Assembly (NCBI GenBank): GCA_002010065.2
Contig: MTMD02000002.1
Span: 128,001-192,000 of the forward strand
Reading direction: 5' to 3'
Length of the DNA stretch: 64,000 bases
Origin: Candidatus Pyrohabitans jungbluthii
Lineage (GTDB): Archaea > Hydrothermarchaeota > Hydrothermarchaeia > Hydrothermarchaeales > BMS3B
The notes beneath the pieces were generated by a model. That model saw only the letters and a list, made by a program, of their open reading frames with translations. It ran no database searches and was not told where the DNA came from. Both the position numbers and the translations under genes were made by a program. Each line of letters opens with the position of its first letter. Within the stretch, counting starts at the first letter, position 1. This document shows, in pieces, positions 2,776 through 33,030 of this stretch.

Positions 2776-4142
2776 GGGAACTGTTTTCCTTCCTCTCTGA
2801 GGAGCGCGTTCTCGTTGATAAGGAAGACCTGCTCCTATACTCCTACGACGCAACGCCTTCACGAAGGTATCCCATCGCCGTGGTTAGGCCGGTAAGCACA
2901 GAAGAGGTTGTGGAAATCGTAAAGGTGGCTTCACGAAAGCGAATACCTCTCGTCGCTCGCGGTGCCGGCACGAGCCTGAGCGGTGCCCCACTTCCCTGCG
3001 AGGGCTGCATTGTGGTGGACTTCTCGCTGATGGATGAGATTATTGAAGTGGATGAGGTCAACGCCTTTGTTGCTGTGCAACCCGGCGTGGTGTATGAGGC
3101 GCTTAACCGTGAGCTGGCGAAGCACGGGCTCTTTTTTCCACCTGACCCTGGAAGCGGAAGCGTTTGCACCATCGCGGGCATGGTGGCAATGAACAGCTCA
3201 GGCATACGCGCCGTGAAGTATGGCACCACTCGCGACTACGTTGCCTCGCTTGAGGTTGTGCTCGGCACAGGCAGAGTTGTTAAGCTTGGCGGGAGGTACA
3301 AGAAGAGTTCATCCGGCTACGACCTCAAAAGCCTCTTCGTTGGGAGTGAGGGGACGCTGGGGCTCTTTACAGAGATAGGGCTCCGCGTGATACCTAGGCC
3401 AAACCACCACGCGGCTATGATTGCGCACTTCGACGACTTCACAGAAGCTGGGAAGGCTATAACCCAAGCTATGGCAAAGCGCCTTGACGTGGCTGTGCTG
3501 GAGGTTATGGACTCCCTGGTTGTGGAAGCCGTGGAAAGCTTCTCAGGCATAAACCTGGGCTCAGCCGAGGCTCTCGTCTTAGCTGAGGTTGAGGGCTTTG
3601 ACGCTAACGTTAAGGAGGAGATTCGCAGGATTGCGCAGGTTTTCACCCGGAGAGGGGCGAAGGTGGAGCTTGCCTTCGACGAGGCAGAGATCGCTCGCCT
3701 GTGGCGTGCTCGAAAGGCTGCACTTCCAGCGTTGGCGCGCCTCGCAAGCACACTGCTGCTCGAAGATATCACTGTGCCCGTCTCGGCGCTGCCCGAGATG
3801 ATGCGTAGAATTCGCGGCATTGGCCAGAGGCATAACATTAGAATCGCCACCTTTGGTCACGCTGGAGACGGCAACCTGCACCCAACTTTTCTCGTAGAGA
3901 ACGAGGAGGAGATGCGCAGGGTGAGCGCTGCGATAGAGGAACTGTTCAGGGAGTGCCTCTCTCTCGGGGGCACCCTCTCGGGAGAGCACGGCATTGGCAC
4001 CGAGAAGCGCCGGTATTTCGAGCTTGAGCACGGCTACGCAACGCAGGTAATGCGCGAGATAAAGCGCGCCCTTGACCCAAAGAACATCCTCAACCCAGGA
4101 AAGATTTTTTATGGAAGGCAAGCTTATTTTAAGCTGAGATGA
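2772..4142 (+). CDS. FAD-linked oxidase, GlcD/D-lactate dehydrogenase family
   Basis: RGAGTSLSG, PPDPGS, GSEGTLG, GHAGDGNLH, SGEHGIG, DPKNILNPGK. Confidence 0.92.
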   Translation: MRELFSFLSEERVLVDKEDLLLYSYDATPSRRYPIAVVRPVSTEEVVEIVKVASRKRIPLVARGAGTSLSGAPLPCEGCIVVDFSLMDEIIEVDEVNAFVAVQPGVVYEALNRELAKHGLFFPPDPGSGSVCTIAGMVAMNSSGIRAVKYGTTRDYVASLEVVLGTGRVVKLGGRYKKSSSGYDLKSLFVGSEGTLGLFTEIGLRVIPRPNHHAAMIAHFDDFTEAGKAITQAMAKRLDVAVLEVMDSLVVEAVESFSGINLGSAEALVLAEVEGFDANVKEEIRRIAQVFTRRGAKVELAFDEAEIARLWRARKAALPALARLASTLLLEDITVPVSALPEMMRRIRGIGQRHNIRIATFGHAGDGNLHPTFLVENEEEMRRVSAAIEELFRECLSLGGTLSGEHGIGTEKRRYFELEHGYATQVMREIKRALDPKNILNPGKIFYGRQAYFKLR

Positions 4143-4672
4143 AAAAGAGGCTTCTATTGCATGTGTGCTGCGCTCCAGACGCTACTGTGCCCTACCAGCG
4201 ACTCAAAGATGAGTACGAGGTAATCGCCTTCTTCTACAACCCCAACATCCACGGAGAGGAGGAGTATCAGAAGCGCCTGCACGAGGTGGAGAGGCTTGCG
4301 AAGCTCTGGGACTTCCCTCTAATAGTTGGGGAGTACAACGTGGAGCAGTGGTTCAGCGCAGTTCGAGGCCTTGAGGATGAGCCAGAAGGGGGCAAGCGCT
4401 GCGAGGTGTGCTACTCGCTGCGCTTGGAGGAGACGGCAAAGCTTGCGAAGGAGCTTGGATGCGAGGCTTTTGCAACAGTGCTCACCATAAGCCCCCACAA
4501 GAAGGCGGAGAAAATAAACGCCATAGGTAAAGAAGCAGGCGAAAGACACGGCATCGCTTACCTTGAGTCTGACTTCAAGAAGAAGGATGGGTTTAAAGAG
4601 AGTGTCAGGATAAGCAGAGAGCTTAATCTCTACCGGCAGAACTACTGCGGCTGCAGGTTTTCTATGAGGTAG
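4139..4672 (+). CDS. queH: Epoxyqueuosine reductase QueH (DUF208) family protein
   Basis: LLHVCCAPD, FYNPNIH..EY..R, RCEVC, SPHK, YRQNYCGCRFS. Confidence 0.88.
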   Translation: MKKRLLLHVCCAPDATVPYQRLKDEYEVIAFFYNPNIHGEEEYQKRLHEVERLAKLWDFPLIVGEYNVEQWFSAVRGLEDEPEGGKRCEVCYSLRLEETAKLAKELGCEAFATVLTISPHKKAEKINAIGKEAGERHGIAYLESDFKKKDGFKESVRISRELNLYRQNYCGCRFSMR

Positions 4673-6284: not shown

Positions 6285-7592
6285 ATGGTTAGAGTTGCGA
6301 TAATCGGCGGCAGCGGCGAATTTGGCAGACTTTTTGCGAGAGTTTTCGCCGAGGAGGGGCACGAGGTTGTTATCACGGGCAGAGACCAGGCAAAGGGGGA
6401 GCGAGTAGCTAAGGAGATAGGTGTGCGCTTCTCGCGAGATAACGTCGCTGCCGCGAAGTGGGGGGACATAGTGATAATAAGCGTGTACATAGACAACACT
6501 GTCGAGGTTATAAAGCAGGTGGCGCCGCACGTGCGGGAGGGCTCGCTTCTAATGGATGTCACCAGTGTAAAGGTGGAGCCGTGCAAAGCGATGCTCGCCC
6601 ATGCCAGGCGAGGCGTGGAGATTATAGGCACCCACCCTATGTTCGGACCCCGCGTAACCAGCTTCGAAGGCTTGGTGTTCATCCTCACGCCGTTGCGAGG
6701 AGAGAAGTGGAAGCGCTGGCTTCTCGAGTGGCTGGAGAAGCACAAGGCGAGGGTGATAGTAACCACGCCAGAGGAGCACGACAGAATAATGAGCGTTGTT
6801 CAGTGCCTGACCCACTTCACCTACATAAGCGTAGCCTCAACGCTACGCGAGCTTGGCATTGACGTTAAATACTCCCGCCGCTTTGCCTCGCCGATTTATG
6901 AGCTGATGCTGGACCTTATCGCGCGCATTGTGGGGCAGAACCCCCACCTCTACGCCAGCATACAGATGCACAACCCCCTCGCCACGAAGGTGCACGACAC
7001 CTTCATATCGCAGGCTTCCAAGCTGCGTGGGATAGTCGCAGCCAAAGACAAGCGCGCTTTCGTTGACCTCATGGCCAAGGCAGCGCGTCACATGGGCGAC
7101 GTCGAGGCGGCGATGGGGCGCAGCGACAAAGCTATACACGCGCTGAGCGAGGAGCTCAAAAAGCTCAAGGAGAGCATAGGCAAAGAGGTTGCGCTCCGCC
7201 ACCTCTACTCTGGAGCGGTGCATATGGGCAGGGTGGTGGAGGTTGACCCGGAGAAGGTTACGCTCATAGCAGGCAAGAAAAAGGTAACCCTCAAGATAGC
7301 CAATGTGGAGCTTCTGCCCGAGGAGGAGCTTCTGCGCTACAAAGCTGAGCACCTGCCAAAGGAAAGGCGGGACTTTTCTGTTGTTTTGCCGGAGGGTGCG
7401 GATGAGAAATTTATCGCATCGCTCCTTCGGCACAGCATACGTGGAGCACTCACCTGCGAGGTCATAGACATCTACCGCGGAAAGCAGATTCCCCAGGGAA
7501 TGAAAAGCGTTACCTTCCGCGTGATTGGCGTTGACCTCGACTTTGCACAGGTGGAGCGCTTCCTGCGCGGCATAGGTGGTAGGCTAAGATGA
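6285..7592 (+). CDS. tyrA: Prephenate dehydrogenase with C-terminal extension (FDX-ACB-like domain)
   Basis: IIGGSGEFG, DVTSVK, HPMFGP, HD..MS.VQ.LTH; tail DIYRGKQIPQGMKSVTFRV. Confidence 0.92.
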   Translation: MVRVAIIGGSGEFGRLFARVFAEEGHEVVITGRDQAKGERVAKEIGVRFSRDNVAAAKWGDIVIISVYIDNTVEVIKQVAPHVREGSLLMDVTSVKVEPCKAMLAHARRGVEIIGTHPMFGPRVTSFEGLVFILTPLRGEKWKRWLLEWLEKHKARVIVTTPEEHDRIMSVVQCLTHFTYISVASTLRELGIDVKYSRRFASPIYELMLDLIARIVGQNPHLYASIQMHNPLATKVHDTFISQASKLRGIVAAKDKRAFVDLMAKAARHMGDVEAAMGRSDKAIHALSEELKKLKESIGKEVALRHLYSGAVHMGRVVEVDPEKVTLIAGKKKVTLKIANVELLPEEELLRYKAEHLPKERRDFSVVLPEGADEKFIASLLRHSIRGALTCEVIDIYRGKQIPQGMKSVTFRVIGVDLDFAQVERFLRGIGGRLR

Positions 7593-8141
7593 GCTCTTCT
7601 TCCTTTCTTTTATGTAATCCTCCACCATGCCAAAGGTGATGAAGAGCAGCAAAACAAGCAGCAGAACCTTTACAAGACCATACTTCGCCGCAAGCTCTGT
7701 GAAGAGCACCTTAACCCAGCCAACTTTGGGTATCCAGAACACCACCTTCCCGCGGAGGTACTGCTCGCTCACCGGCGGGGCTAGCATGACGCGGGGGTCC
7801 TGGTCGGGGTAGGGATTCGTGAGGTTATTGTCGCCCTTGGTTATAAAGTACAGCTTTCCGTCTATCTCCTCAATCGCCACGACGCGGTGCACTACAGGTA
7901 TGTGCTTAAACGGGTTGTAGTAGACTATTATGTCCCCAACCTTCACATCCTCTGGCTCTACTCCCTTTATAACCACAAGGTCGCCCTTGCTGAACGTCGG
8001 TTCCATGCTGCTGCTCACGACCGCCATCACCGGCTTCTCTGCGCCAAGCACTAAGCCCAGGCCAAAGTTTAAGGCAATAGCGAGGATGAGCCCTATTACG
8101 ATGTACCTGCCTGTGTCTAAGAGTTCGCTTTTCACATCCAT
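7584..8141 (-). CDS. sec11: Signal peptidase I (Sec11 type)
   Basis: VVSSSMEP, VVHRV, TKGDNN; N- and C-terminal TM helices. Confidence 0.93.
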   Translation of the reverse strand: MDVKSELLDTGRYIVIGLILAIALNFGLGLVLGAEKPVMAVVSSSMEPTFSKGDLVVIKGVEPEDVKVGDIIVYYNPFKHIPVVHRVVAIEEIDGKLYFITKGDNNLTNPYPDQDPRVMLAPPVSEQYLRGKVVFWIPKVGWVKVLFTELAAKYGLVKVLLLVLLLFITFGMVEDYIKERKKSSS

Positions 8142-8178
8142 TATTGCTTTACCCGCAAAGATATTCTCTGAAAAATAT

Positions 8179-9123
8179 TTAAAATTCTCCAAGCTGCTCC
8201 ACGCTACACTCGCTTGCGGGCTTATCTAAGCGGAGTCTCACGAAACGGGGCATGCGCAGCCTTAAATCGCGGGTCACCGAGTCGTACGCTATTTCAGCTA
8301 CGAACTCTGGCTTTACAAAGCTCGCCTCCTTCACACCTTCATAGCCAGCCAGCTCCAGAGAGTTCACGCGAAGCTTTTCAAGCTGCTCTCTCAAGCTACG
8401 TAGCGTGGCTTCGTCAAAACCTGTGCCCACCTTGCCCACGTAGCGCAGCTCGTCGCCATGATAGAGCGCAAGTAGGAGCGCCCCAAAGCTCTCCTCTCGC
8501 TCACCTTTGCCTTTTGTGAAGCCTACAATAATGCAGTCCACACTCTTAATCCGCTTTATCTTGAGCCAATCGCTGCTTCGCTTTCCAGGATCGTAGATGC
8601 TCTTCTTCCGCTTCGCCACTATGCCCTCGAGGCCAAGTTTAAGCACAGCCTCGTAGTAAGCCTCGCCGTGCTCCTCAACGAAGTCTGCTATGACTACGTG
8701 TTTCCCCTCCCTCAGCGCTTCCCTCAGCACCTCCTTTCGCTTCATGAGGGGCGTGTTAAGTAGCGACTCGCCTCTATAAGCCAAGATGTCAAACACCACG
8801 TAGCTCGCTGGAAAGCGCTTCGCCAGGTAGGCGACGCGCTCCTGCGGGGCGTTGAGCCTCTCTATCGCAAGCTGAAAGTCTGGCTTGCCCCCGCGAAGCA
8901 CCACAATCTCGCCGTCGAGAATCGCTTTGCTGGAGACCAGCTCCTTGAGCTCCGTAAGCTCCGGAAAGGCTTCGAGCAGCTCATTACCCCGCCTGCTCCT
9001 TATGCTCAGCTTGGTGTCAATATAACTTATGGCGCGAATCCCATCCCACTTAACCTCAAAAATCCAATCGGGCGAAGAAAAGGGCTTTCTTGCTGTCTTT
9101 GCAAGCATCGGTTTAATAAACAT
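8179..9123 (-). CDS. ATP-dependent DNA ligase, NHEJ LigD-type ligase module (stand-alone)
   Basis: Motif I EVKWDG, ILDGE, VFDIL, EGIVAK, WLKIK, VGTGF, RMPRF. Confidence 0.95.
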   Translation of the reverse strand: MFIKPMLAKTARKPFSSPDWIFEVKWDGIRAISYIDTKLSIRSRRGNELLEAFPELTELKELVSSKAILDGEIVVLRGGKPDFQLAIERLNAPQERVAYLAKRFPASYVVFDILAYRGESLLNTPLMKRKEVLREALREGKHVVIADFVEEHGEAYYEAVLKLGLEGIVAKRKKSIYDPGKRSSDWLKIKRIKSVDCIIVGFTKGKGEREESFGALLLALYHGDELRYVGKVGTGFDEATLRSLREQLEKLRVNSLELAGYEGVKEASFVKPEFVAEIAYDSVTRDLRLRMPRFVRLRLDKPASECSVEQLGEF

Positions 9124-9126
9124 CTT

Positions 9127-9924
9127 CTACTCCTGCTTTGCCTTGAGTTCCTCCACAGTCTTTCGCAGGGCTTCCATTAGGCTCTTAACCTCCTCCTTTT
9201 CCGCCTCCTCCACCACGACGACCTCGCCCGCTAGCTTCTTGTTGATAAGCTCCTGAAGCCTCTCCACGTAGGTATCGCGGTAGCTCGCTAAGTCAAACTC
9301 CCCCGAAAGCGCGTCCACTATCGTCGCCGCCAGCTCCAGCTCCTCCTCAGGGGGCTCCTTTATGCCCTGGAGCTCCTCCATGTCCTGTGGACTTACAACC
9401 TCATGAGGATAGTGCAGCGTCGTCGCGATCAGCGCACCCCTGTAGGGGTGTACCAGTACTGGATATTCTTTAGAGCGGAGCGTAAGCCTGCCCGCCCCAG
9501 CTTTGCCCGTGCGCTGAAGGGTATATAAGAGCAGGGCATACGCCTCCTCGCTCTTATCAGGGGTGAGGATGTAGGAGGTGTGGAAGTATATCGGGTCAAC
9601 GCTGGCAAGGTCAACAAACTTCTCAAGGGCTATCTTCTTACTCGAAGCCGGCTTAATAGCCTCAAGCTCTTCTTCCTCAAAGACCACATACTCACCCTTG
9701 CGCACCTCGTAACCTTTAACTATTTCTTCCAGGGGGACCTCCTCACCGCACTTGCTACACACCCGTTTAAATTTTATTGGCGCGTTGTCTCTGCGGTGAA
9801 GCATGCGGAAGGAGAAGACCTTCTCTCGAATCATGGGGTAGAGCTTTACGGGCACGTTGACCAGGCCCACCGTTATACTCCCGCTCCATATCGCCCGCTT
9901 TGGCGGCTTAGCGCTAAGCTCCAT
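9127..9924 (-). CDS. ku: Ku end-binding protein (prokaryotic NHEJ)
   Basis: RAIWSGSITVGLVNVPVKLY, EIVKGYEV..GEYVV, IDPIY-like VDPIYF, Y.DTY.ERL..LI..K, LMEALRKTV. Confidence 0.96.
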   Translation of the reverse strand: MELSAKPPKRAIWSGSITVGLVNVPVKLYPMIREKVFSFRMLHRRDNAPIKFKRVCSKCGEEVPLEEIVKGYEVRKGEYVVFEEEELEAIKPASSKKIALEKFVDLASVDPIYFHTSYILTPDKSEEAYALLLYTLQRTGKAGAGRLTLRSKEYPVLVHPYRGALIATTLHYPHEVVSPQDMEELQGIKEPPEEELELAATIVDALSGEFDLASYRDTYVERLQELINKKLAGEVVVVEEAEKEEVKSLMEALRKTVEELKAKQE

Positions 9925-10729
9925 ACCTCACCTCCAGCCTCTGAGGCTCAAAGAACCCGCACCAGGGGTCTCCCCTCTCAGGTACAGTATTTATATTCAA
10001 CTCCACAGGTGATAAACCTTTCTCCAGCTCTTCCCAGGCGAGAGGCGTTGAAACCGGCGCCCCTTCCAGGGGGCGCAGTGAGTATGGCGCCGCCATGGTC
10101 TTGCCCACGGCGTTCTGGGCATAGTCTATTTTAACCTCTTTTCTGAGCTTGGCAACGAAGCGCCCAAGCTCGCGCACAAATGCTCGAGTGTCCTTGAAGG
10201 AGTACTCCCTCACAATGGGAATGAGCACATGCAGTCCCCTCTTGCCCGAGGTTTTAACGTAGCTCCTTAACCCAAGCTCCCTCAGCCTGTCGTTAATCAG
10301 AAGCGCCACCTCGCGAGCTTCGGCGAAGCCGGAACCTTGAGCCGGGTCTATGTCTATGAGCACTATATCAGGCTTCTCAAAATCGTCCACCCTTGATAGC
10401 GTGACGTTTATCTCCAAGCTTGCAAGGTTAGCCATCCACAAAAGCGTGTCCAGGTCGTCGCCCACGATGTAGTTAACATAGCGCTTTGCGTGCTCTGAAT
10501 AACGCCTAAATGTTTTCACCCAGCTTGGGGTATGCGAAGGGGCGTCCTTCTCAAAGAAGCCTTTGCCTGCGATGCCATCGGGAAACCGGTGCATAACCAC
10601 AGCTCGCTTCCTAAGGTAGGGCAGCATCTTCGGCGCTACCTTGATGTAGTACTCAATCACCTTCGCTTTGGTAATACCCGGAAAAAGCTCCTTGCTGAGG
10701 TTGGTGAACTTTACCTTAGTCAGCTCCAA
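9914..10729 (-). CDS. NHEJ polymerase/primase module (LigD PolDom, AEP fold), stand-alone
   Basis: TN.SKELFPG.TK, RFPDGI.GKGFFEK, DIDP, KTSGKRGLH, IDYAQN..GKT.AAPYSLR, APVSTPLAWEE; TTG start. Confidence 0.94.
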   Translation of the reverse strand: MELTKVKFTNLSKELFPGITKAKVIEYYIKVAPKMLPYLRKRAVVMHRFPDGIAGKGFFEKDAPSHTPSWVKTFRRYSEHAKRYVNYIVGDDLDTLLWMANLASLEINVTLSRVDDFEKPDIVLIDIDPAQGSGFAEAREVALLINDRLRELGLRSYVKTSGKRGLHVLIPIVREYSFKDTRAFVRELGRFVAKLRKEVKIDYAQNAVGKTMAAPYSLRPLEGAPVSTPLAWEELEKGLSPVELNINTVPERGDPWCGFFEPQRLEVRYGA

Positions 10730-11150
10730 CTTCTATCCCCCTCTCCACTAAAAACTCCCTCGCCGCCTTGAGCACGCGCTTGGCATTGGCATACGTAACC
10801 CTGGCGTATGCCTCCTGGAATGGAAGCCACGCATAGTCCACGTGCTCATAGCTCAGCGTAACCTCGCTGGTTTTAGCCTCCGCCAAGTAGAACACCACCT
10901 CCTTGTATACAAGCTCCCTGCCCGAGCGGTAGAAGTACTCTATCTTCTCCTTGAAGCCGGGGATAATCTCCAGCTCATTTATGCCGGTCTCTTCCTCCGC
11001 CTCCCGGAGAAGCGTTTCAATCTCACTCTCCCCCTCCTCTATATGCCCCTTCACAAAATCCCAGTGGCCTGCGCCGTACTTGAGCAGGAGGTACTCTACC
11101 CTCGAGTTCCTCTTGAATATAACCGCACCCGCACTCTTCTCTCGCCTCAA
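10716..11150 (-). CDS. Nudix hydrolase, Ap4A-hydrolase-like
   Basis: SAGAVIF, YLLLKY.AGHWDFVKGH, Nudix box GHIEEGESEIETLLREAEEETG, SYEH.DYAW; TTG start overlaps PE stop. Confidence 0.9.
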   Translation of the reverse strand: MRREKSAGAVIFKRNSRVEYLLLKYGAGHWDFVKGHIEEGESEIETLLREAEEETGINELEIIPGFKEKIEYFYRSGRELVYKEVVFYLAEAKTSEVTLSYEHVDYAWLPFQEAYARVTYANAKRVLKAAREFLVERGIEVGAD

Positions 11151-11605
11151 TCTTTCTCCTCCTTAGCTTTGAAAAAGAGCCACGCGTTTTCGCCGCCTTT
11201 CTTGAAACGCAGCAGTACGTAGCGTCCCCGCAGCTTCTCGCCCTTTAGGTGAAATACTATCTTCTCATCCTTCCTGCTCTCCAGCTCATAGCTGCCGCGA
11301 TCCCAGATTTTCACCTCACCCGCGCCGTACATACCTTCTGGAATAACCCCCTCGAAGTTTGCGTACTCTAAGGGGTGCTCCTCTGTTTGAATCGCCAGTC
11401 TGCGCACGCCTTGCTCAGTGGGCGGCGGCTTTGGAATCGCCCAGCTTTTGAGCACACCGTCCATAGCCAAGCGAAGGTCATAGTGAAGCCTTCTCGCATG
11501 ATGCTCCTGCACAACAAAGATGTTCTCATGCTTTGCCTTCTCTTTAGGCTCTGGTTCAGGCGTTTTGGAGAAGTCGCGCTTCCGCTGGTATTCTTCAAGG
11601 CTCAT
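11147..11605 (-). CDS. NHEJ 3'-phosphoesterase module (LigD PE), stand-alone
   Basis: LEEYQRKRDFSKTPEP, FVVQEHHARRLHYDLRL, LKSWAIPK, RLAIQTEEHPLEY..FEG.IP.G.YGAG.V.IWD.G. Confidence 0.95.
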   Translation of the reverse strand: MSLEEYQRKRDFSKTPEPEPKEKAKHENIFVVQEHHARRLHYDLRLAMDGVLKSWAIPKPPPTEQGVRRLAIQTEEHPLEYANFEGVIPEGMYGAGEVKIWDRGSYELESRKDEKIVFHLKGEKLRGRYVLLRFKKGGENAWLFFKAKEEKD

Positions 11606-11731
11606 TGGTATTGTTTTGTAAGGATAAAACTTAAGGGTAGCGCTTGTGCGGAGTTGCAAGTTGCGATTAAAGTGGGAGAGGTGAGACTTTAAATAACCCT
11701 TTCGCCCAGTAATAAAATGAGGTGGGTGAAA

Positions 11732-15855: not shown

Positions 15856-16925
15856 CTCCCCGATGTTTCTTTGGCTTTTTGTTTAAGTGCATGCTTTATC
15901 GGAGGCGTCATCGTTACTGGCTTCTCTTTTATAAGCCCGTCGGGCTTATAGTATAGGATGAGCAGCATGAGCACCCCAAAGAGAATGTATTCAAGCCACG
16001 TTGCCTCGAAGGGAAGGTGCAGCGTAGACTTTATTTCAAACTTGTAAACAATAAGTAGCACCTTTACAATGACAAAAGAAAACACACCAAGGACAACGCC
16101 TCTGTTATTTCCCATGCCCCCCAGCAGCAGCATGAGGAATGGGAAGAATGTCCAATCAACCCTAAAGAATGTGGAGGCTATGACGTTAACGCTGTAAAGG
16201 GAGTAAAAGGCTCCTGCTATGGCTGCAATAGCAGAGCCCAATGCTACAGTTTTTATCCTCAGCACAAGTATGTTCTTTCCAAAAGCCTTAACCACATCTT
16301 CGTTCTCCCTCATAGCCTTTAAAAGCCTGCCGTAAGGCGAGGTGAGGAGCCTCTCCACAAAGAGGTAGACCAGCAGGGCGATACCCACGCCAAGAAGGGC
16401 AAACGCCAAGAACCTCCTCTCCCCAGGCACGAAGGCGAGCACATCCGGAATACTGACGCCGTAGTATCCTCCTATAATGGAAGTGTTGTAGTTTGAGACC
16501 AGGAATAAAACCTCACTTATTGCGAGGAGGGTTATCGCGAGGTAGTCTTGGCGAAGCTTTGCACTGGGAAGAATAAACAGGGCGCCGGTAACAGCGCCCA
16601 TAAGCGCCGCTATCAATAAACACAAAACAAGAATACCCAGCCCAAGCAGGGGATTTTGTGAGATCATCGCATTTACTGTACTCTTGAGAGTTCCGCTTGT
16701 CTCTATAATTCCTCTCCCCTCGATTCCTAATAGTAGGATGAGAATCCTGTTAACCACTCCTCCAACTGCTATGGCACCAATGAGCACAGCTAAAGCGCGA
16801 CCAAAATTTGGTATCCCGGCATAGCCGTACTCTATGTTAAGGCTCAAAGCCACTATTAGATATATGGAAAACCAGAGGATTATGTCTAGGAGGAGGTACT
16901 CCTGCGCCATGTCATTTTCCTCCAT
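15852..16925 (-). CDS. Branched-chain amino acid-type ABC transporter permease (LivM-like)
   Basis: SLNIEYGYAGIPNFG, DYLAITLL, SPYGRLLKAMRENE, LLGGMGN. Confidence 0.92.
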   Translation of the reverse strand: MEENDMAQEYLLLDIILWFSIYLIVALSLNIEYGYAGIPNFGRALAVLIGAIAVGGVVNRILILLLGIEGRGIIETSGTLKSTVNAMISQNPLLGLGILVLCLLIAALMGAVTGALFILPSAKLRQDYLAITLLAISEVLFLVSNYNTSIIGGYYGVSIPDVLAFVPGERRFLAFALLGVGIALLVYLFVERLLTSPYGRLLKAMRENEDVVKAFGKNILVLRIKTVALGSAIAAIAGAFYSLYSVNVIASTFFRVDWTFFPFLMLLLGGMGNNRGVVLGVFSFVIVKVLLIVYKFEIKSTLHLPFEATWLEYILFGVLMLLILYYKPDGLIKEKPVTMTPPIKHALKQKAKETSGR

Positions 16926-17809
16926 ATATCCAGCCCTGCGATTCCCTTGGGGCTGACTATTAAGGCGATTATAAGTACTATGAGGGAAACAACCTTGCTA
17001 TATAGCAGTATAGAGGGACCCAGTGGCTTTGAAAGGTAGAAGGTTATTAGTGATTCAGACATCCCTATAATATAACCTCCAATCAAGGCTCCGTATATGC
17101 TTCCCAGCCCTCCAACTATGCTTGCGGCAAAGATTGAAACTATTATTATCGCCCCAGTTGCAGGAACAATCTCTTGCCGGAAGGGAAGCAGACTCCCAGC
17201 TACCGCGGCGAGGGAGCCAGAGAGAAACCAAGAAAAGAGGCGGGTGTATTCCACGTTTACCCCCATTATCTCAGCAAGGGCAGGATTTTCCATGGAGGCG
17301 CGCAGAGCAATTCCAAATTTAGTCTTATAAAGGAGTAGAAACAATGCAAAAAGTATAAGGAGAATGACTGCGCTTGAAACCACGAGTATCGCATCCAAGC
17401 CAGCGAGCTTAAAATCCATTGGCGTAAAAATGAACTTTTTTGTTCCCTTGCTGGTTATCCCTGCCAGAGTGTCTGAATATGCTCCCAACACTCCCAAAAG
17501 AATCAAATCTACAGCGAGGGTTGCTATCATCAGCGTGACTACCATTGCCTCCTTTCTAATCATAGGTTTTAGCACTAGGGTATAGATTGCAATTCCAAGG
17601 CCTCCTCCGAGGATAAAGGATACGGGAAGGGAATAGTACGGGTGGATGTTGAAGAGGAGCCAGAGGGATAGGGAGACGAAAGACCCAAAAATTGCCATGC
17701 TTCCCTGAGCAAAATTGGGTACGCCAGTAGTTATGTAAGTGATGGTTAAACCGATGCTGAGAAGAACCAGGAGGTTGGAGTAAACAATCGCTCCTTCCAA
17801 AACAGCCAT
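16886..17809 (-). CDS. Branched-chain amino acid-type ABC transporter permease (LivH-like)
   Basis: IGLTITY...VPNFAQG, TKFGIALRA..EN, FAASIVGGLGSI.GA. Confidence 0.92.
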   Translation of the reverse strand: MAVLEGAIVYSNLLVLLSIGLTITYITTGVPNFAQGSMAIFGSFVSLSLWLLFNIHPYYSLPVSFILGGGLGIAIYTLVLKPMIRKEAMVVTLMIATLAVDLILLGVLGAYSDTLAGITSKGTKKFIFTPMDFKLAGLDAILVVSSAVILLILFALFLLLYKTKFGIALRASMENPALAEIMGVNVEYTRLFSWFLSGSLAAVAGSLLPFRQEIVPATGAIIIVSIFAASIVGGLGSIYGALIGGYIIGMSESLITFYLSKPLGPSILLYSKVVSLIVLIIALIVSPKGIAGLDIWRKMTWRRSTSS

Positions 17810-17897
17810 GGATACCTCATCAACCTTAAAGTTTATATACTTTATCTTAAAACAGAATGATGGAGATTCTAAAAATCTAAAAGAGGAGGTACAGACT

Positions 17898-19214
17898 ATG
17901 AACAGGGGCTGGTTTAAACTTTTTGGTATTTTACTGATTGCGGCGATTCTATTTTCTGGGTGCACCCAGCCAGCGGAGAAAGCTGCTCCGGCACCTGCAG
18001 AAAAACCTCAGGAAACGGCTGCTCCTGCACCGACAGAGGTGAATATTCCCCTGGGGGTGCTTGTTGATCTTTCCGGACCGCTAACAACTTATGGTGAGGA
18101 CATTAAGACTACCGTCACCATCGCCAGCGAGAAGATAAATGAGCACTTTGAAAAGGCTGGCAAGCCATACAGGGTCAAGATATACGTAGAAGACACGAAG
18201 GTGGATCCGAAGATAGCCCTAGACAAGGTCATGGCTCTCCACAGCAAGGGTGTTAAGCTTATCGTGGGTCCAATGGGCAGTGGAGAGGTGAAGAACGTTA
18301 TTGAGTATGTGAGATCCAACAAGATTATCATAGCCTCCCCGTCTTCCACGGCGGACCCCAAGTACATAGGCGTTACCTCCCCAGAGGAAAAGAAGTATGT
18401 CTTCAGGTTCGTGGCTACTGATTCCTTCCAGACAAAAGCCATCGCCAAGCTTGCCCAGGAGCTCGGGGTTAAGGCAGTGGTTATAACCTACATCGGCAAC
18501 GCCTGGGGCAAAGGCTTAGAGGAGTTCGGCCGGGCAGAGTTTGAAAAGCTTGGAATAGAGGTTAGGAGTTCTGTGGAGTATCCTGACCCGCCACCCGCTG
18601 ACTTTACGCCCTATATAGCCACTGTAGAAGAGGCGGTAAACGACCTTCTAAAGAGCTACAGCAAGGATGAGGTTGCAGTGGTGACTTTCGGCTACGAGGA
18701 AGTTGCGACGATGCTGGCACAGGTCAAGAGCGATTCCGTGCTGCTCAGCGTAAAATGGATTGGCTGCGACGGCACTGCTAAGAGCAAGAAGGTTGTGGAG
18801 GATGTACCAGACAAGGCGAGTAAAATCATGCTCTACAGCACCGTCTCAGAGACAAGAGGTGGAAAAGCCTATGAGGAGCTCAGCAAGGTATACGCAGAGC
18901 GTACCGGCGGCAAGACTCCAATCAGCTATGGATTGAATGCCTACGATGCCGCCTGGGTCTTAGCCCTGTCGTTTGCTGAAGTTTACGACAAGCTCGGTAA
19001 GTACGACGCCGATGCTATGGCGGAGACTATCCCTGAGGTCGCTGAGAAGTACAGTAAGGGCGAGTATGGCGTAGAGCCGGTGAGTGGCGAGGTTAAGTTC
19101 GATGAGTACAATGACAGAGTCGGTTCTGAGTACAGAATCTACGCAGTTAAGGAGGGAAGCTGGACTGAAGTTGGAGTATGGAAATTCGCAACCAACTCCA
19201 TCGAGTGGAGCTAG
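17898..19214 (+). CDS. ABC transporter substrate-binding lipoprotein (LivK/Peripla_BP_6)
   Basis: Lipobox FSGC, Pro/Ala linker, DLSGPL, EDTKVDP, VGP.GS, AYDA. Confidence 0.92.
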   Translation: MNRGWFKLFGILLIAAILFSGCTQPAEKAAPAPAEKPQETAAPAPTEVNIPLGVLVDLSGPLTTYGEDIKTTVTIASEKINEHFEKAGKPYRVKIYVEDTKVDPKIALDKVMALHSKGVKLIVGPMGSGEVKNVIEYVRSNKIIIASPSSTADPKYIGVTSPEEKKYVFRFVATDSFQTKAIAKLAQELGVKAVVITYIGNAWGKGLEEFGRAEFEKLGIEVRSSVEYPDPPPADFTPYIATVEEAVNDLLKSYSKDEVAVVTFGYEEVATMLAQVKSDSVLLSVKWIGCDGTAKSKKVVEDVPDKASKIMLYSTVSETRGGKAYEELSKVYAERTGGKTPISYGLNAYDAAWVLALSFAEVYDKLGKYDADAMAETIPEVAEKYSKGEYGVEPVSGEVKFDEYNDRVGSEYRIYAVKEGSWTEVGVWKFATNSIEWS

Positions 19215-29656: not shown

Positions 29657-30892
29657 TCATATTAGCCTGGTCTGAGTAAGAGTGAACTTGGACAGGCTGC
29701 GCAGGCGTATATCCTCTTCAACCACGCGTTTTATGTCCTTCAGCGGTACTTCAAGCTTTATCTCGCGGGTTCTTCCATACCTGCCTTTGCTTATAACAGT
29801 GGAGTTTAATATGCCAAGCATATCCAGCTCGGAAATTAAATCTGAAATCCTCCTCTGGGTAAGCGAGTCTATGGAAACTGCCCTGCATAGGCTCTTATAA
29901 ACCTGATAGATCTTGCCTGTGGTTATGAATTTAGTGCCCCGCTCTTCGAGGAGTATAACCGCGTAGAGCAGGACCTTTGACTGCGTTGGTAAGGTGCGCA
30001 CCGCCTCGACGACGTTATCCCGCTCTATCTTCTCATTGGCTTTGCGCACGTGTATCTCGGTTATTATCTCCGCATTCTCCCTCTCCGCCACTTCTCCGCT
30101 CACTCTGAGAAGGTCAAGGGCACGACGAGCATCACCATGCTCTCTAGCGGCAAGAGCAGCGCAAAGGGGAATTACATACTCGTCCAGAACCCCTGGCTCA
30201 AAGGCAAGCTCGGCTCGTTGCTTGAGTATATCCTCCAGCTGCTTGGCATTGTACGGCTTGAAGATTATCTCCTCCTCACCCAAAGAGCTCTGCACCCTGG
30301 TATCGAGGTAGCTTGTAAACTTTAAGTTGTTGGAGATTCCTATTATGCTCACCCTTGCGCGCTGAAGCTCAGAATTTATTCTCGTCAAGTTGTAGAGCAC
30401 CCGGTCGCCGCCCTTGGAAACGAGACGATCAATTTCATCAAGGATAATTATCACATTCTGCCTCCTCTCATCCACTGCTTCTTTAAATGCTGCATAAACT
30501 TTATCAGTGGGCCAGCCTGTGAAGGGCACATTTTCTCCAAAATGCTTAGCTAGGTTTGCAAGAACGCGATATTGAGTATCTGTAACCTCGCAGTTTAAAT
30601 AAACAGTAGAGATGGGAACTCCATACTTTTTACCAGTTTCTCTTAACCCTCTGCATATAAATTTAGAAACGATTGTTTTACCTGTGCCGCTTTTACCGTA
30701 AATAAGAATGTTTGATGGCGTTTCTCCCTTCAGTGCTGGAGCAAGAATAGTTGCAAGAGCATTTATTTCCTCTTCCCTGTGAGGGAGCTCATCGGGAGTA
30801 TAACTGTGCCTCAACGCTTCTTTGTTTTTGAACAGAGGTTGACGATGAAGGAAAGATTCAAAAATCCGTGCAAATGAATTCCTGACCTCCAT
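29657..30892 (-). CDS. cdc6: Orc1/Cdc6 replication initiator
   Basis: LPHREE, GKSGTGKT, LDEID, GDARRALDLLR, wHTH SKGRYGRTR. Confidence 0.98.
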   Translation of the reverse strand: MEVRNSFARIFESFLHRQPLFKNKEALRHSYTPDELPHREEEINALATILAPALKGETPSNILIYGKSGTGKTIVSKFICRGLRETGKKYGVPISTVYLNCEVTDTQYRVLANLAKHFGENVPFTGWPTDKVYAAFKEAVDERRQNVIIILDEIDRLVSKGGDRVLYNLTRINSELQRARVSIIGISNNLKFTSYLDTRVQSSLGEEEIIFKPYNAKQLEDILKQRAELAFEPGVLDEYVIPLCAALAAREHGDARRALDLLRVSGEVAERENAEIITEIHVRKANEKIERDNVVEAVRTLPTQSKVLLYAVILLEERGTKFITTGKIYQVYKSLCRAVSIDSLTQRRISDLISELDMLGILNSTVISKGRYGRTREIKLEVPLKDIKRVVEEDIRLRSLSKFTLTQTRLI

Positions 30893-30985
30893 ATCCACAA
30901 GCTCCTCAACGTCCACTTGAAATAAAGGTTCGGGGCAAACCAACTAAGTATAATACATCAGTCGTATTTAATATTTTTGAGTTCT

Positions 30986-31006
30986 CACCCTGTCTTTCCA
31001 CTGGAA
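30986..31006 (-). promoter_or_regulatory. Origin recognition box ORB1
   Basis: Minus strand TTCCAGTGGAAAGACAGGGTG; matches archaeal TTCCAGTGGAAA + G-string. Confidence 0.88.
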
Positions 31007-31108
31007 TTTTATTATAGATAGTAATAATGCTTAAATATTAAACAAATTTCTATTATAAATCATGATAAAATACAAAAATACAAAAATTTTTTCACCCTAA
31101 TAATAGAG

Positions 31109-31129
31109 ACCCCTTTATTTCCTGTGGAA
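31109..31129 (-). promoter_or_regulatory. Origin recognition box ORB2
   Basis: Minus strand TTCCACAGGAAATAAAGGGGT. Confidence 0.9.
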
Positions 31130-31417
31130 TGTTTAGCTGTAACTTAGACAGGAGAATTAAGGTTATTTGGCGATATTGGAATTACAACGTCAATGTAGTA
31201 ATTATGCAAAATTATAGTGAAAGTTTTTACGGATAGATATGTGAGAATTCTTTTGCTTTTACTATTTTATAGAATCACTAAATTATGTAATTATTTGAAA
31301 AATACTTATAAATCTTAGTTATTTTCAAATCGTAAAACTTTTATACTATTAATGCCATAGTAACACTGAATACTTCTCGTCAAATATTATTGTAATAATT
31401 AAATTTTCCTTTTTGCC

Positions 31418-31438
31418 TTCCATAGGAAATAAAGGGGT
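31418..31438 (+). promoter_or_regulatory. Origin recognition box ORB3
   Basis: TTCCATAGGAAATAAAGGGGT; 20/21 identical to ORB2 in inverted orientation. Confidence 0.9.
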
Positions 31439-31497
31439 GTCACTATAACCTTGGCAAGATTTATCTATGCATGAAGCGAAAGCTAAATTGAGGTAAT

Positions 31498-33030
31498 ATG
31501 ACCAAGATTGTGGGAATGATTTTTGGTGAGGTTGGATATGGCGATTTCAATTTCCTTGTAGCCAGAGATGCAAACCTCGAGAAGGGTGAATATGTCAAAG
31601 TAAATCATGAGAAGTATGGCTGGGTTCTTGCTCAGGTTCGCACAATTAAGCGTTATAATGAGCTTTATTCTCTCAATGCAATTACAGGCACTTCTATACC
31701 CAAGGCTCAGGAAGAGCGCATAATCGCCAACGCAAAGGTTATAGGCTACATTGACAAAGATGGCCTTCTCAAGACGCCAAAGATACCCTTCAGACCTGGG
31801 GAGAAAATATACGAGGCAGATGCTGGAATAATACGAAAGTCGCTCAAACTCGAGCAGAAGAATGGTATTTACCTTGGCCTGCTTGAAGGGCACAGCAGAA
31901 AGATACCAGTGTATCTCAACCCCAACAAGCTCATCCAGAAGCACATCGCCGTGCTGGCGAAGACGGGTGCAGGTAAGAGCTACACCGTTGGCGTTCTAAT
32001 TGAAGAGCTTATTGAGAAAAAGGTGCCAGTTGTCATAATAGATCCGCATGGAGAGTACTCTGCCCTTCGCTACCCTAACGACAGTCCAAGAGAGCTATCT
32101 TTGATGGAGCATTACGGAGTCACCCCCAAGGGTTATGATAGCGTGGTGGAGTACACCCCAAATCAGAGTATCAACCCTCAGGCTGATCGCAAGCTGAGCC
32201 TTGACATTACCCGCTTTACCATAAATGACTTCATTGAAATGCTCCCCACGAAGATTACAGACTCTCAGAAGGGCATACTGTTTGAGGCTCTTAAGGTCGT
32301 GGAGACCTACGGGAGTTACACCCTTGAGGATATTATACGGGTGATTCATGAGCATGAGAGCAAGGCGAAGTGGAATCTCATCACAAGCTTAGAGATGCTG
32401 CGAGAGAGTAAGATCTTTGAAGGCACCCCTGTTAAGACCTCTGAGCTGGTGCGTAGGGGTGTTACCTCCATAATAAACCTCCGCGGAGTTCAGCCTGAGA
32501 TTCAGGATATCGTTGTGTCTCGCATAGCTACTGAGATCTTCGAAGACAGAAAGCGGGGCAAGGTTCCACCCCTGCTCTTCCTGATAGAGGAGGCGCACAA
32601 CTTCGCACCAGAGCGTGGCTTTGGTGCTAAGGCTTCCAACAAGATTATTAGAACAATAGCCAGCGAGGGTAGAAAGTTCGGAATGGGTCTGTGCGTAGTA
32701 ACGCAGCGCCCGGCGAGAATCGATAAGAGCGTCCTCAGCCAGTGCAATACCCAGATTATACTCAAGGTCACCAATCCCAACGATTTAAAGGCGATAAGCC
32801 AGAGCATCGAAGGCTTTACCTCAGATCTAGAAGAGGAGATAAAGCAGCTGGAGCCTGGAGAGGCTCTTGTTGTTGGCGATGTGGTGGAGCAGCCTATATT
32901 TGTGGATGTGCGCGTCAAGCGCTCCCGGCATGGCGGGGCGAGCGTTGAGGTTGTGCGCGAGAGGCGTGGCAAACGGGTGAAAAAGACAGGCTTCGACTCC
33001 TTGCTAAGGCGAATTTTCTCTCGGTATTAG
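31498..33030 (+). CDS. HerA-family ATPase (HAS barrel + FtsK/HerA ATPase)
   Basis: HIAVLAKTGAGKSY, IDPHGEY, IEEAHNFAP, EGRKFG.GL..VTQRP, SQCNT, NP.D, GEA. Confidence 0.92.
   Translation: MTKIVGMIFGEVGYGDFNFLVARDANLEKGEYVKVNHEKYGWVLAQVRTIKRYNELYSLNAITGTSIPKAQEERIIANAKVIGYIDKDGLLKTPKIPFRPGEKIYEADAGIIRKSLKLEQKNGIYLGLLEGHSRKIPVYLNPNKLIQKHIAVLAKTGAGKSYTVGVLIEELIEKKVPVVIIDPHGEYSALRYPNDSPRELSLMEHYGVTPKGYDSVVEYTPNQSINPQADRKLSLDITRFTINDFIEMLPTKITDSQKGILFEALKVVETYGSYTLEDIIRVIHEHESKAKWNLITSLEMLRESKIFEGTPVKTSELVRRGVTSIINLRGVQPEIQDIVVSRIATEIFEDRKRGKVPPLLFLIEEAHNFAPERGFGAKASNKIIRTIASEGRKFGMGLCVVTQRPARIDKSVLSQCNTQIILKVTNPNDLKAISQSIEGFTSDLEEEIKQLEPGEALVVGDVVEQPIFVDVRVKRSRHGGASVEVVRERRGKRVKKTGFDSLLRRIFSRY

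What the first reader, a model, noticed from the sequence alone, without database searches (positions are those of the whole stretch)
8179..11605. Complete four-component archaeal NHEJ operon with an Ap4A-hydrolase-like Nudix gene coupled inside it
Seen: one minus-strand run PE - Nudix - PolDom - Ku - Lig. The first three junctions overlap (4, 14 and 11 nt) and the last has a 3-nt gap, so the Nudix gene is translationally coupled on both sides. Known: complete Ku+Lig+Pol+PE sets are rare in archaea (Methanocella paludicola is the characterised case); a Nudix enzyme is not a standard NHEJ component; ATP-dependent ligases can make Ap4A and abortive 5'-adenylated DNA. Inference: this is a candidate fifth NHEJ factor. 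It could clear ligase-derived Ap4A, de-adenylate or decap blocked 5' ends (an aprataxin-like role), or sanitise the rNTP/dNTP pool used by PolDom.
Basis: partly seen in the sequence, partly recalled or inferred. Interest (0 to 1): 0.85.

Follow-up and report, generated by a model that had tools for sequence, protein, structure and literature searches.

The report
Archaeal end-joining operon with embedded Nudix
An archaeon carries all four DNA end-joining repair genes in one tight gene row with an Ap4A-hydrolase-type gene in the middle, but comparison with relatives suggests that this extra gene was already sitting next to one of the four before the other three arrived, so it is probably not a new repair factor.

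Summary
On the minus strand lie PE (11147-11605), Nudix (10716-11150), PolDom (9914-10729), Ku (9127-9924) and Lig (8179-9123). The junctions overlap by 4, 14 and 11 nt, then comes a 3-nt gap. The Nudix is a NUDT2-type Ap4A-hydrolase homologue by sequence and by predicted fold.

The "fifth NHEJ factor" reading is poorly supported:
- The Nudix family is widespread in archaea. In 160 loci outside the phylum, none had PE beside the Nudix and one had Pol-Ku-Lig within 2.4 kb.
- In 78 Ku loci of another archaeal phylum, none had a Nudix nearby. None of its 77 Ku-bearing genomes held an orthologue.
- A relative with a complete Pol-Ku-Lig-PE operon keeps its Nudix 470 kb away.
- A PE-Nudix pair exists without Ku in two other genera.
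- The PE groups with the family's stand-alone PEs. The Ku groups with "Pol-Ku-Lig-PE" cassettes.

Best reading: a Pol-Ku-Lig cassette joined a resident PE-Nudix bicistron. A lineage-specific role for the Nudix in end processing or ligase by-product clearance is not excluded.

The parts
11147..11605 (-). Stand-alone LigD-type 3'-phosphoesterase (PE), 152 aa
   Evidence: Pfam LigD_N 7e-41. TIGR02777 scores 201 bits against a cut-off of 144. H35, H41, D43, R45 and H77 are invariant and Y81 nearly invariant across 17 sequences. It groups with the family's stand-alone PEs.
10716..11150 (-). NUDT2-type (Ap4A-hydrolase-like) Nudix hydrolase, 144 aa, TTG start overlapping the PE stop (TTGA)
   Evidence: Pfam NUDIX 1.6e-17. 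The Nudix box spans G35-I57. Best solved relative by sequence is human NUDT2 at 1e-27. The model has pLDDT 94.7, and its best fold matches are all Ap4A hydrolases, TM 0.82-0.84.
9914..10729 (-). NHEJ primase-polymerase (PolDom), 271 aa
   Evidence: Pfam LigD_Prim-Pol 3e-76. TIGR02778 scores 213 bits, just under its cut-off of 214.7.
9127..9924 (-). Ku, 265 aa
   Evidence: Pfam Ku 2e-45. TIGR02772 scores 277 bits against a cut-off of 150. It lies in a starred clade of Ku genes that all have Pol directly upstream.
8179..9123 (-). NHEJ ATP-dependent DNA ligase (LigD ligase-domain type), 314 aa
   Evidence: Pfam DNA_ligase_A_M 1e-37 and DNA_ligase_A_C 3.5e-26. TIGR02779 scores 281 bits against a cut-off of 227.75.
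11606..11716 (.). Divergent intergenic region between PE and aroD; candidate promoter region (a TTTTAT stretch at 11624-11629, about 22 nt before the PE ATG)
   Evidence: Read directly from the sequence. The promoter assignment is inference only.
7584..8192 (-). Type I signal peptidase (S26) gene just downstream of Lig; membership of the operon is uncertain
   Evidence: Pfam Peptidase_S26 scores 27.6 bits against a cut-off of 22.9. The longest-ORF TTG start overlaps Lig by 14 nt. A TTTAAATA stretch at 8176-8183 and an ATG at 8141 suggest it may have its own start (inference).

Best explanation
The five-gene row is a composite. A two-gene unit, PE followed by a NUDT2-type Nudix, is resident in this archaeal lineage and exists without Ku in other genera. 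In the window's genus, a Pol-Ku-Lig block lies directly downstream of that pair. The block is of the cassette type that normally reads Pol-Ku-Lig-PE. The resident PE therefore supplies the fourth NHEJ activity, and the Nudix ends up in the middle for historical reasons. The NHEJ part should work as in the characterised archaeal and bacterial systems: Ku binds the ends, PolDom fills or extends them with (ribo)nucleotides, PE trims 3' ribonucleotides and 3'-phosphates, and Lig seals. This mechanism is inferred from family membership, not shown here. The Nudix most likely does what its family does elsewhere, which is to hydrolyse Ap4A or related dinucleoside polyphosphates as a general function, without a dedicated step in end joining.
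For: (1) The Nudix family is widespread and mostly unlinked to NHEJ. Orthologues of 37-66% identity occur in Bathyarchaeia, Nitrososphaeria, Methanoculleus, Thermoplasmatota, DPANN and CPR records. Of 80 genome loci, none has PE, Ku or Pol within 6 kb. Of 80 metagenome loci, none has PE and one has Pol-Ku-Lig.
(2) Within the window's order of 35 genomes, the Nudix is found in 15, PE in 27 and Ku in 7. Eight genomes have the Nudix without Ku.
(3) G013 has Pol-Ku-(Lig-PE fusion) at C9:719.5-722.5 kb and its Nudix at C9:1191 kb.
(4) PE-Nudix pairs occur without Ku, Pol or LigD-type ligase. In G009 the pair is also next to aroD/aroE, as in the window. In G020 the two genes are 1 nt apart. G012 also has the pair. 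The Ku family was not found in these genomes, which are 93-100% complete.
(5) In the PE tree, the window's PE lies inside the clade of family f1's stand-alone PEs (SH-aLRT 94). G013's operon PE groups with NHEJ-linked PEs of another phylum.
(6) In the Ku tree, the genus's Ku lies in a starred (97) clade of 14 rows. All of them have Pol directly upstream of Ku, and 10 of them have PE downstream.
(7) Ku, Pol and the LigD-type ligase are found in the window's genus only, in none of the 6 other genomes of its family.
(8) In another archaeal phylum, none of 78 Ku loci has a Nudix-box ORF or a hit to the Nudix profile within about 6 kb, and the positive control found all known copies. None of the 77 Ku-bearing genomes is among the 87 Nudix-bearing genomes of the same 401 (lists compared by hand).
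(9) Overlapping junctions are the norm in this window.
Against: The Nudix is kept intact and as conserved as its neighbours in all 5 genomes of the genus: Nudix 84-96% identical, Pol 77-98%, Ku 89-100%. All 3 Ku-bearing genera of the order have the Nudix, against 7 of the 16 genera without Ku; that is too few lineages to test. One unrelated-looking metagenome contig (L222) has the Nudix 2.4 kb upstream of Pol-Ku-Lig, although an opposite-strand gene lies between them. In ten further loci, a replicative-type ATP-dependent DNA ligase gene lies 0.5-3.1 kb from the Nudix gene; nine of these are one related group. Two protein clusters fuse a PolX repair polymerase to a Nudix 44% identical to this one. 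The direction of events, insertion in the genus or loss in its sister genera, is not resolved. Landing exactly behind the PE pair by chance is unlikely, so selection for co-expression with PE is implied.
Confidence: 0.6

Rival explanations
1. PE and the Nudix form a lineage-specific two-enzyme end-healing unit. PE cleans 3' ends. The Nudix removes a 5' block joined through a pyrophosphate (5'-adenylate left by abortive ligation, or 5'-triphosphate on primase-made RNA). The Pol-Ku-Lig cassette was recruited behind this unit because the two work together.
For: PE and Nudix are adjacent in 7 of the 12 genomes of the order that have both, in 3 genera of 2 families. The pair is tightly spaced in the window (4-nt overlap) and in G020 (1 nt). 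Apart from QueH, the surrounding genes differ between the families. From recall, not from a call: some Nudix enzymes of related subfamilies act on RNA 5' ends.
Against: PE and Nudix lie apart in 5 other genera (G013, G015, G022, G023, G030). PE occurs without the Nudix in 15 genomes, and the Nudix without a detected PE in 3, one of which (G001) has an assembly gap where PE would lie. None of the 160 loci outside the phylum shows the pair. In G012 the PE is truncated while the Nudix is intact. In G009 the PE has Phe at the nearly invariant Tyr, and the Nudix lacks a common start codon at the conserved position. A single origin of the pairing is not rejected (AU p = 0.29), so the pair may be inherited synteny. 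QueH lies near the pair in both families. NUDT2-type enzymes prefer four or more phosphates (recalled).
Confidence: 0.15
2. The Nudix is a partner of ATP-dependent DNA ligases. It removes the Ap4A/Ap4N that a ligase-AMP intermediate makes when no nick is available, or resets stress signalling during repair.
For: A review lists T4 DNA ligase and human Lig3 as Ap4A synthesisers (PMC7705103, passages read). The closest solved relatives are all Ap4A hydrolases. The Nudix lies next to or near an ATP-dependent ligase gene in the window's genus, in L222, in L217 and in a Bathyarchaeia-like group of 9 loci.
Against: Nine of the ligase-linked loci are one related group (Nudix 64-96% identical to each other), so independent cases are few. 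Other Bathyarchaeia loci with full flanks show no ligase. None of the 78 Ku-Lig loci has a Nudix. A diffusible substrate needs no gene linkage.
Confidence: 0.12
3. The Nudix sanitises the nucleotide pool for PolDom in the manner of MutT, removing 8-oxo-(d)GTP.
For: Two protein clusters fuse PolX to a related Nudix. Mycobacterial MutT1-type Nudix domains appear among the lower fold matches. NCBIfam gives weak matches to MutT models, all far below their cut-offs.
Against: Sequence and fold place it with the Ap4A hydrolases, not with MutT; the MutT models score 23-36 bits against cut-offs of 98-475. There is no Nudix at 78 Ku loci, 26 of which hold PolDom.
Confidence: 0.05

Closest known systems
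Archaeal/bacterial Ku-LigD NHEJ with separate Ku, Lig, Pol and PE proteins (Methanocella paludicola type)
   Same: All four activities are encoded as separate proteins in one cluster. The Ku groups with archaeal Pol-Ku-Lig-PE cassettes.
   Different: The gene order is PE-Nudix-Pol-Ku-Lig, not Ku-Lig-PE-Pol (17 of 78 loci) or Pol-Ku-Lig-PE (4 of 78). The PE is the lineage's own stand-alone gene. A Nudix gene lies inside the row, which was seen in none of the 78 other Ku loci.
Stand-alone archaeal PE enzymes (Candidatus Korarchaeum and Methanosarcina barkeri PE; PMC3082917, passages read)
   Same: A small PE protein that occurs independently of Ku. PE is in 27 of 35 genomes of the order and Ku in 7. 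The spacing of the His, His, Asp, Arg, His and Tyr columns matches the published active site (the residue roles are recalled).
   Different: Here the PE is the first gene of an NHEJ row, and in three genera it is paired with a Nudix.
NUDT2-type asymmetrical Ap4A hydrolases (human NUDT2, Aquifex aeolicus aq_158, C. elegans, Chlamydia CT771)
   Same: Full-length profile match to NUDT2 at 1e-27. The predicted fold matches with TM 0.82-0.84 and 27-37% identity. The Nudix box is complete, and Y72 aligns with the Tyr of NUDT2.
   Different: No activity has been measured. The genomic setting beside PE and NHEJ genes is not described for these enzymes in the papers I searched.
Aprataxin (HIT-family 5'-AMP DNA deadenylase)
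   Different: A different fold and family. No evidence here that this Nudix acts on DNA ends.

Membership tests
Prokaryotic Ku-LigD NHEJ system | Ku homologue present | tested here: met
   Pfam Ku 2e-45. TIGR02772 scores 277 bits against a cut-off of 150.
Prokaryotic Ku-LigD NHEJ system | LigD-type ATP-dependent ligase domain encoded next to Ku | tested here: met
   TIGR02779 scores 281 bits against a cut-off of 227.75. There is a 3-nt gap after Ku.
Prokaryotic Ku-LigD NHEJ system | AEP primase-polymerase (PolDom) and 3'-phosphoesterase (PE) present | tested here: met
   LigD_Prim-Pol 3e-76 and LigD_N 7e-41. TIGR02778 is 1.7 bits under its cut-off.
Prokaryotic Ku-LigD NHEJ system | End-joining activity of the proteins | not testable with these tools
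   Needs biochemistry or genetics.
Nudix hydrolase superfamily | Nudix box GX5EX7REUXEEXGU (pattern recalled) and a Pfam match above the cut-off | tested here: met
   G35...E41...R49 E50 A51. E53 E54. G56 I57. PF00293 scores 64.2 bits against a cut-off of 21.1.
NUDT2-type Ap4A hydrolase subfamily | Closest solved relatives by sequence and by fold are Ap4A hydrolases | tested here: met
   3u53 at 1e-27 and 3i7u at 4e-22. The top 15 Foldseek rows are all Ap4A hydrolases.
NUDT2-type Ap4A hydrolase subfamily | Hydrolysis of Ap4A to ATP and AMP | not testable with these tools
   Needs an enzyme assay. No NCBIfam equivalog reaches its cut-off.
Dedicated NHEJ accessory factor (the proposed 'fifth component') | Conserved linkage or co-occurrence with Ku/LigD across lineages | tested here: not met
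   None of 78 Ku loci and none of 77 Ku-bearing genomes in another phylum. G013's Nudix is 470 kb from its operon. One of 160 Nudix loci outside the phylum lies near Pol-Ku-Lig.
Conserved PE-Nudix gene pair (not a described system) | Adjacency kept across lineages with otherwise different neighbours | tested here: inconclusive
   Adjacent in 7 of 12 genomes with both genes (3 of 8 genera). Absent in 160 loci outside the phylum. A single origin is not rejected.

The most novel reading that the evidence does not exclude
PE plus the NUDT2-type Nudix is a small two-ended nucleic-acid end-healing unit of this archaeal phylum. PE cleans 3' ends. The Nudix removes 5' blocks joined through a pyrophosphate, or the Ap4N made by a stalled ligase. 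In one genus this unit was co-opted as the front end of a five-gene NHEJ operon, which would make the Nudix a true lineage-specific NHEJ accessory enzyme.
Probability: 0.2. Interest if true: 0.65.

Novelty: new variant of a known kind. Interest (0 to 1): 0.35.

Why it matters
If the composite reading is right, this locus shows how an archaeal NHEJ operon can be assembled. An imported Pol-Ku-Lig cassette docked behind a resident stand-alone PE and dropped the need for its own PE. It is also a warning that overlapping reading frames in compact genomes do not by themselves show shared function. If the minority reading is right, a NUDT2-type Nudix would be the first dedicated nucleotide-pyrophosphatase partner of prokaryotic end repair, filling a role that aprataxin-like enzymes play in eukaryotes.

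Tried and rejected
- Complex prediction of PE with Nudix: no verdict (score 0.02 against a mark of 0.32). It counts neither for nor against binding.
- RNA evidence for co-transcription: no RNA holder was listed.
- Apparent loss of PE in the same-genus genome G001: this is a run of 100 N in the scaffold, not a deletion.
- Apparent PE-Nudix fusion ORF in G012 (229 aa): the PE part lacks its N-terminal third, including the His-His-Asp-Arg columns. I read it as a decaying PE, not a functional fusion.
- G023: I tested whether the contig ends carrying PE and the Nudix join. They do not overlap, and another contig end shows a different gene upstream of the Nudix. G023 was counted as 'apart'.
- Nudix tree: too few columns to resolve. 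AU tests reject neither one clade of the PE-linked copies (p = 0.29) nor monophyly of the phylum's copies (p = 0.20).
- Search for longer fused forms of the Nudix: 5 hits among 422 candidates. Four have only low-complexity Arg/Gly-rich extensions and one is a PolX fusion. No fusion to PE, Ku, LigD or PolDom was found.
- The rest of the L222 contig, to see whether PE follows Lig, could not be read because the record is not held.
- Earlier notes of this scan: nothing on this locus. Three notes on phage PE-ligase modules did not bear on it.
- Literature searches: no paper reporting a Nudix gene in a Ku/LigD operon was found in the library searched. Supplementary files were not consulted and might hold neighbourhood tables.
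Full report
**What is there.** One search shows five consecutive minus-strand ORFs between 8179 and 11605.
- They match LigD_N (PE), NUDIX, LigD_Prim-Pol, Ku and the two ATP-dependent ligase domains.
- They also match the NCBIfam NHEJ models. PE, Ku and Lig are above their cut-offs; Pol is 1.7 bits under its cut-off.
- The PE stop and the Nudix TTG start share TTGA, with GGAGGAG five bases upstream. A similar purine-rich stretch precedes the PolDom TTG.
- The PE start is the ATG at 11605, which orthologues share.
- aroD and aroE are transcribed divergently upstream. A type I signal peptidase gene follows Lig.
- Tight spacing is usual here. In a rough gene set of the window, 23 of 34 same-strand neighbour pairs overlap or lie within 20 nt. 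The overlaps therefore carry little weight for shared function.

**What the Nudix is.**
- It has a complete Nudix box.
- A profile of 12 orthologues finds human NUDT2 Ap4A hydrolase first (1e-27), followed by the Aquifex, C. elegans, Chlamydia and Plasmodium Ap4A hydrolases.
- A confident model (pLDDT 94.7) matches the same structures best (TM 0.82-0.84).
- No NCBIfam equivalog reaches its cut-off.
- The window's genome has only two Nudix genes.

**Distribution in the lineage.** The window's phylum holds 38 species genomes, 35 of them in one order.
- In the order, the Nudix orthologue is found in 15 genomes, PE in 27 and Ku in 7. The Ku-bearing genomes are the five of the window's genus, G013 and G023.
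- PolDom and the LigD-type ligase follow Ku, except that G023 lacks a clear PolDom.
- In the window's family, none of the 6 genomes outside the genus has Ku, Pol or the LigD-type ligase, but all 6 have PE.
- Twelve genomes have both PE and the Nudix.
- The two genes are adjacent in seven genomes: four of the genus, G009, G020 and G012.
- They lie apart in five: G013, G015, G022, G023 and G030.
- G009, G012 and G020 have no Ku family match at 93-100% completeness.
- G009 also shares the aroD/aroE neighbours of the window.
- G013 has a full Pol-Ku-(Lig-PE fusion) operon and keeps its Nudix 470 kb away.
- The fifth same-genus genome, G001, has an assembly gap where PE would lie.

**Trees.**
- In the PE tree, the window's PE lies in the clade of its family's stand-alone PEs (SH-aLRT 94). 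G013's operon PE groups with the NHEJ-linked PEs of another phylum.
- In the Ku tree, the genus's Ku lies in a starred clade of 14 rows in which Pol always sits directly upstream of Ku. Apart from the genus itself, PE always lies downstream in these rows, as Pol-Ku-Lig-PE or Pol-Ku-PE.
- So the PE looks resident, and the Pol-Ku-Lig block belongs to a cassette type that usually brings its own PE. This is the basis of the composite reading.
- Whether the block was inserted in the genus or lost in its sister genera is not resolved.
- The Nudix tree is too weak to tell one origin of the PE-Nudix pairing from several.

**Outside the lineage.**
- With the Nudix alignment as query, 80 genome loci and 80 metagenome loci were fetched.
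- None has PE next to the Nudix. None of the 80 genome loci has Ku or Pol.
- One metagenome locus, L222, has Pol-Ku-Lig 2.4 kb downstream of the Nudix. A small unknown ORF and an opposite-strand beta-helix gene lie between them. Its cassette is closest to G013's.
- In the reverse direction, Ku was found in 77 of 401 sampled genomes of the phylum of a Methanoculleus record.
- The 78 Ku loci were fetched with about 6 kb on each side. They are mostly Ku-Lig pairs, with 17 Ku-Lig-PE-Pol, 4 Pol-Ku-Lig-PE and 5 Pol-Ku-PE.
- None has an ORF with a Nudix box, strict or relaxed, or a hit to the Nudix profile. The same filters recovered every known copy in the control loci.
- In the same 401 genomes the Nudix orthologue occurs in 87, and none of these is one of the 77 with Ku (compared by hand).

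**Evidence for a functional link.**
- The Nudix is intact and well conserved in all five genomes of the genus.
- All three Ku-bearing genera of the order have it, against 7 of the 16 genera without Ku. Three lineages are too few to test.
- L222 is a second case of proximity to Pol-Ku-Lig.
- Ten loci have a three-domain replicative-type ATP-dependent ligase gene 0.5-3.1 kb from the Nudix gene. In L217 and L237 the two are direct divergent neighbours. Nine of the ten are one related group.
- Two protein clusters fuse a PolX polymerase to a related Nudix.
- A review confirms that DNA ligases can make Ap4A (PMC7705103, passages).
- These points keep a lineage-specific link to PE or to ligases alive, at about 0.25-0.3 in total.

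**Literature.**
- Stand-alone archaeal PEs with end-healing activity are described (PMC3082917, passages).
- Ku is reported as rare in archaea, with 19 sequences in one survey (PMC11936186, passages).
- An archaeal Nudix linked to TFS is an ADP-ribose pyrophosphatase, a different subfamily (PMC2643942, passages).
- In a mycobacterial NHEJ paper, Nudix genes appear only as induced stress genes (PMC12848934, passages).
- No paper found reports a Nudix gene inside a Ku/LigD operon. Supplements were not seen.

**Verdict.** The comparative evidence favours a historical explanation for the embedded Nudix (confidence 0.6) over a fifth NHEJ factor. The locus is a new gene-order variant of a known system. 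It carries a modest open question about the PE-Nudix pair.

Noticed in passing
L122, L131, L133, L134 (PE loci of G028, G022, G021, G031): The stand-alone PE lies beside or within about 1 kb of an HhH-GPD (endonuclease III-like) glycosylase gene in four genomes of two families. This hints that stand-alone PE cleans 3' ends in base excision repair.
   Followed up: partly
L031:5610-7001 (G013): Lig and PE are fused into one 463-aa protein inside a Pol-Ku-LigPE operon.
   Followed up: yes
P0005, P0006 (proteins, no locus): Two protein clusters (476 and 484 aa) fuse a PolX repair polymerase core to a C-terminal NUDT2-type Nudix 44% identical to the window's. More distant Nudix domains are fused to CCA-adding enzymes.
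   Followed up: partly
L217, L237, L254, L263, L268, L275, L276, L290, L041, L045: A replicative-type three-domain ATP-dependent DNA ligase gene lies 0.5-3.1 kb from the Nudix gene, divergently oriented. DUF72 and a PhoU/PHO4 phosphate-transport pair are inserted between them in some loci. Nine of the ten are one related group.
   Followed up: partly
L189, L190, L198 (G171, G131, G327): The Ku match lies in an open frame of 663-671 aa, with the ligase match just downstream on the same strand. This suggests Ku-ligase fusion proteins in another archaeal phylum.
   Followed up: no
L022:5876-6808 and L027:3680-4501 (G012, G020): An AP_endonuc_2 (endonuclease IV-like TIM barrel) gene is transcribed divergently from the PE-Nudix pair, and QueH lies directly downstream. 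QueH also lies about 6 kb from the pair in the window (4139-4672).
   Followed up: partly
L021:1533-1575 (G009): The Nudix of G009 has no ATG, GTG or TTG at the conserved start position; ATA ATA stands where the window has TTG. Its PE has Phe at the nearly invariant Tyr. Both have long branches in the trees, so they may be under relaxed selection.
   Followed up: partly
window 30001-32000, 46001-48000, 16001-18000: Stretches of lower G+C (0.41, 0.45 and 0.46, against about 0.53 for the window).
   Followed up: no
L031:3976-4845, L032:7112-7987, L029:2267-3166: A formylmethanofuran:H4MPT formyltransferase (Ftr) gene lies next to the NHEJ genes in G013 and G023, and about 4 kb from the Nudix in G030. 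This is probably residual synteny.
   Followed up: no
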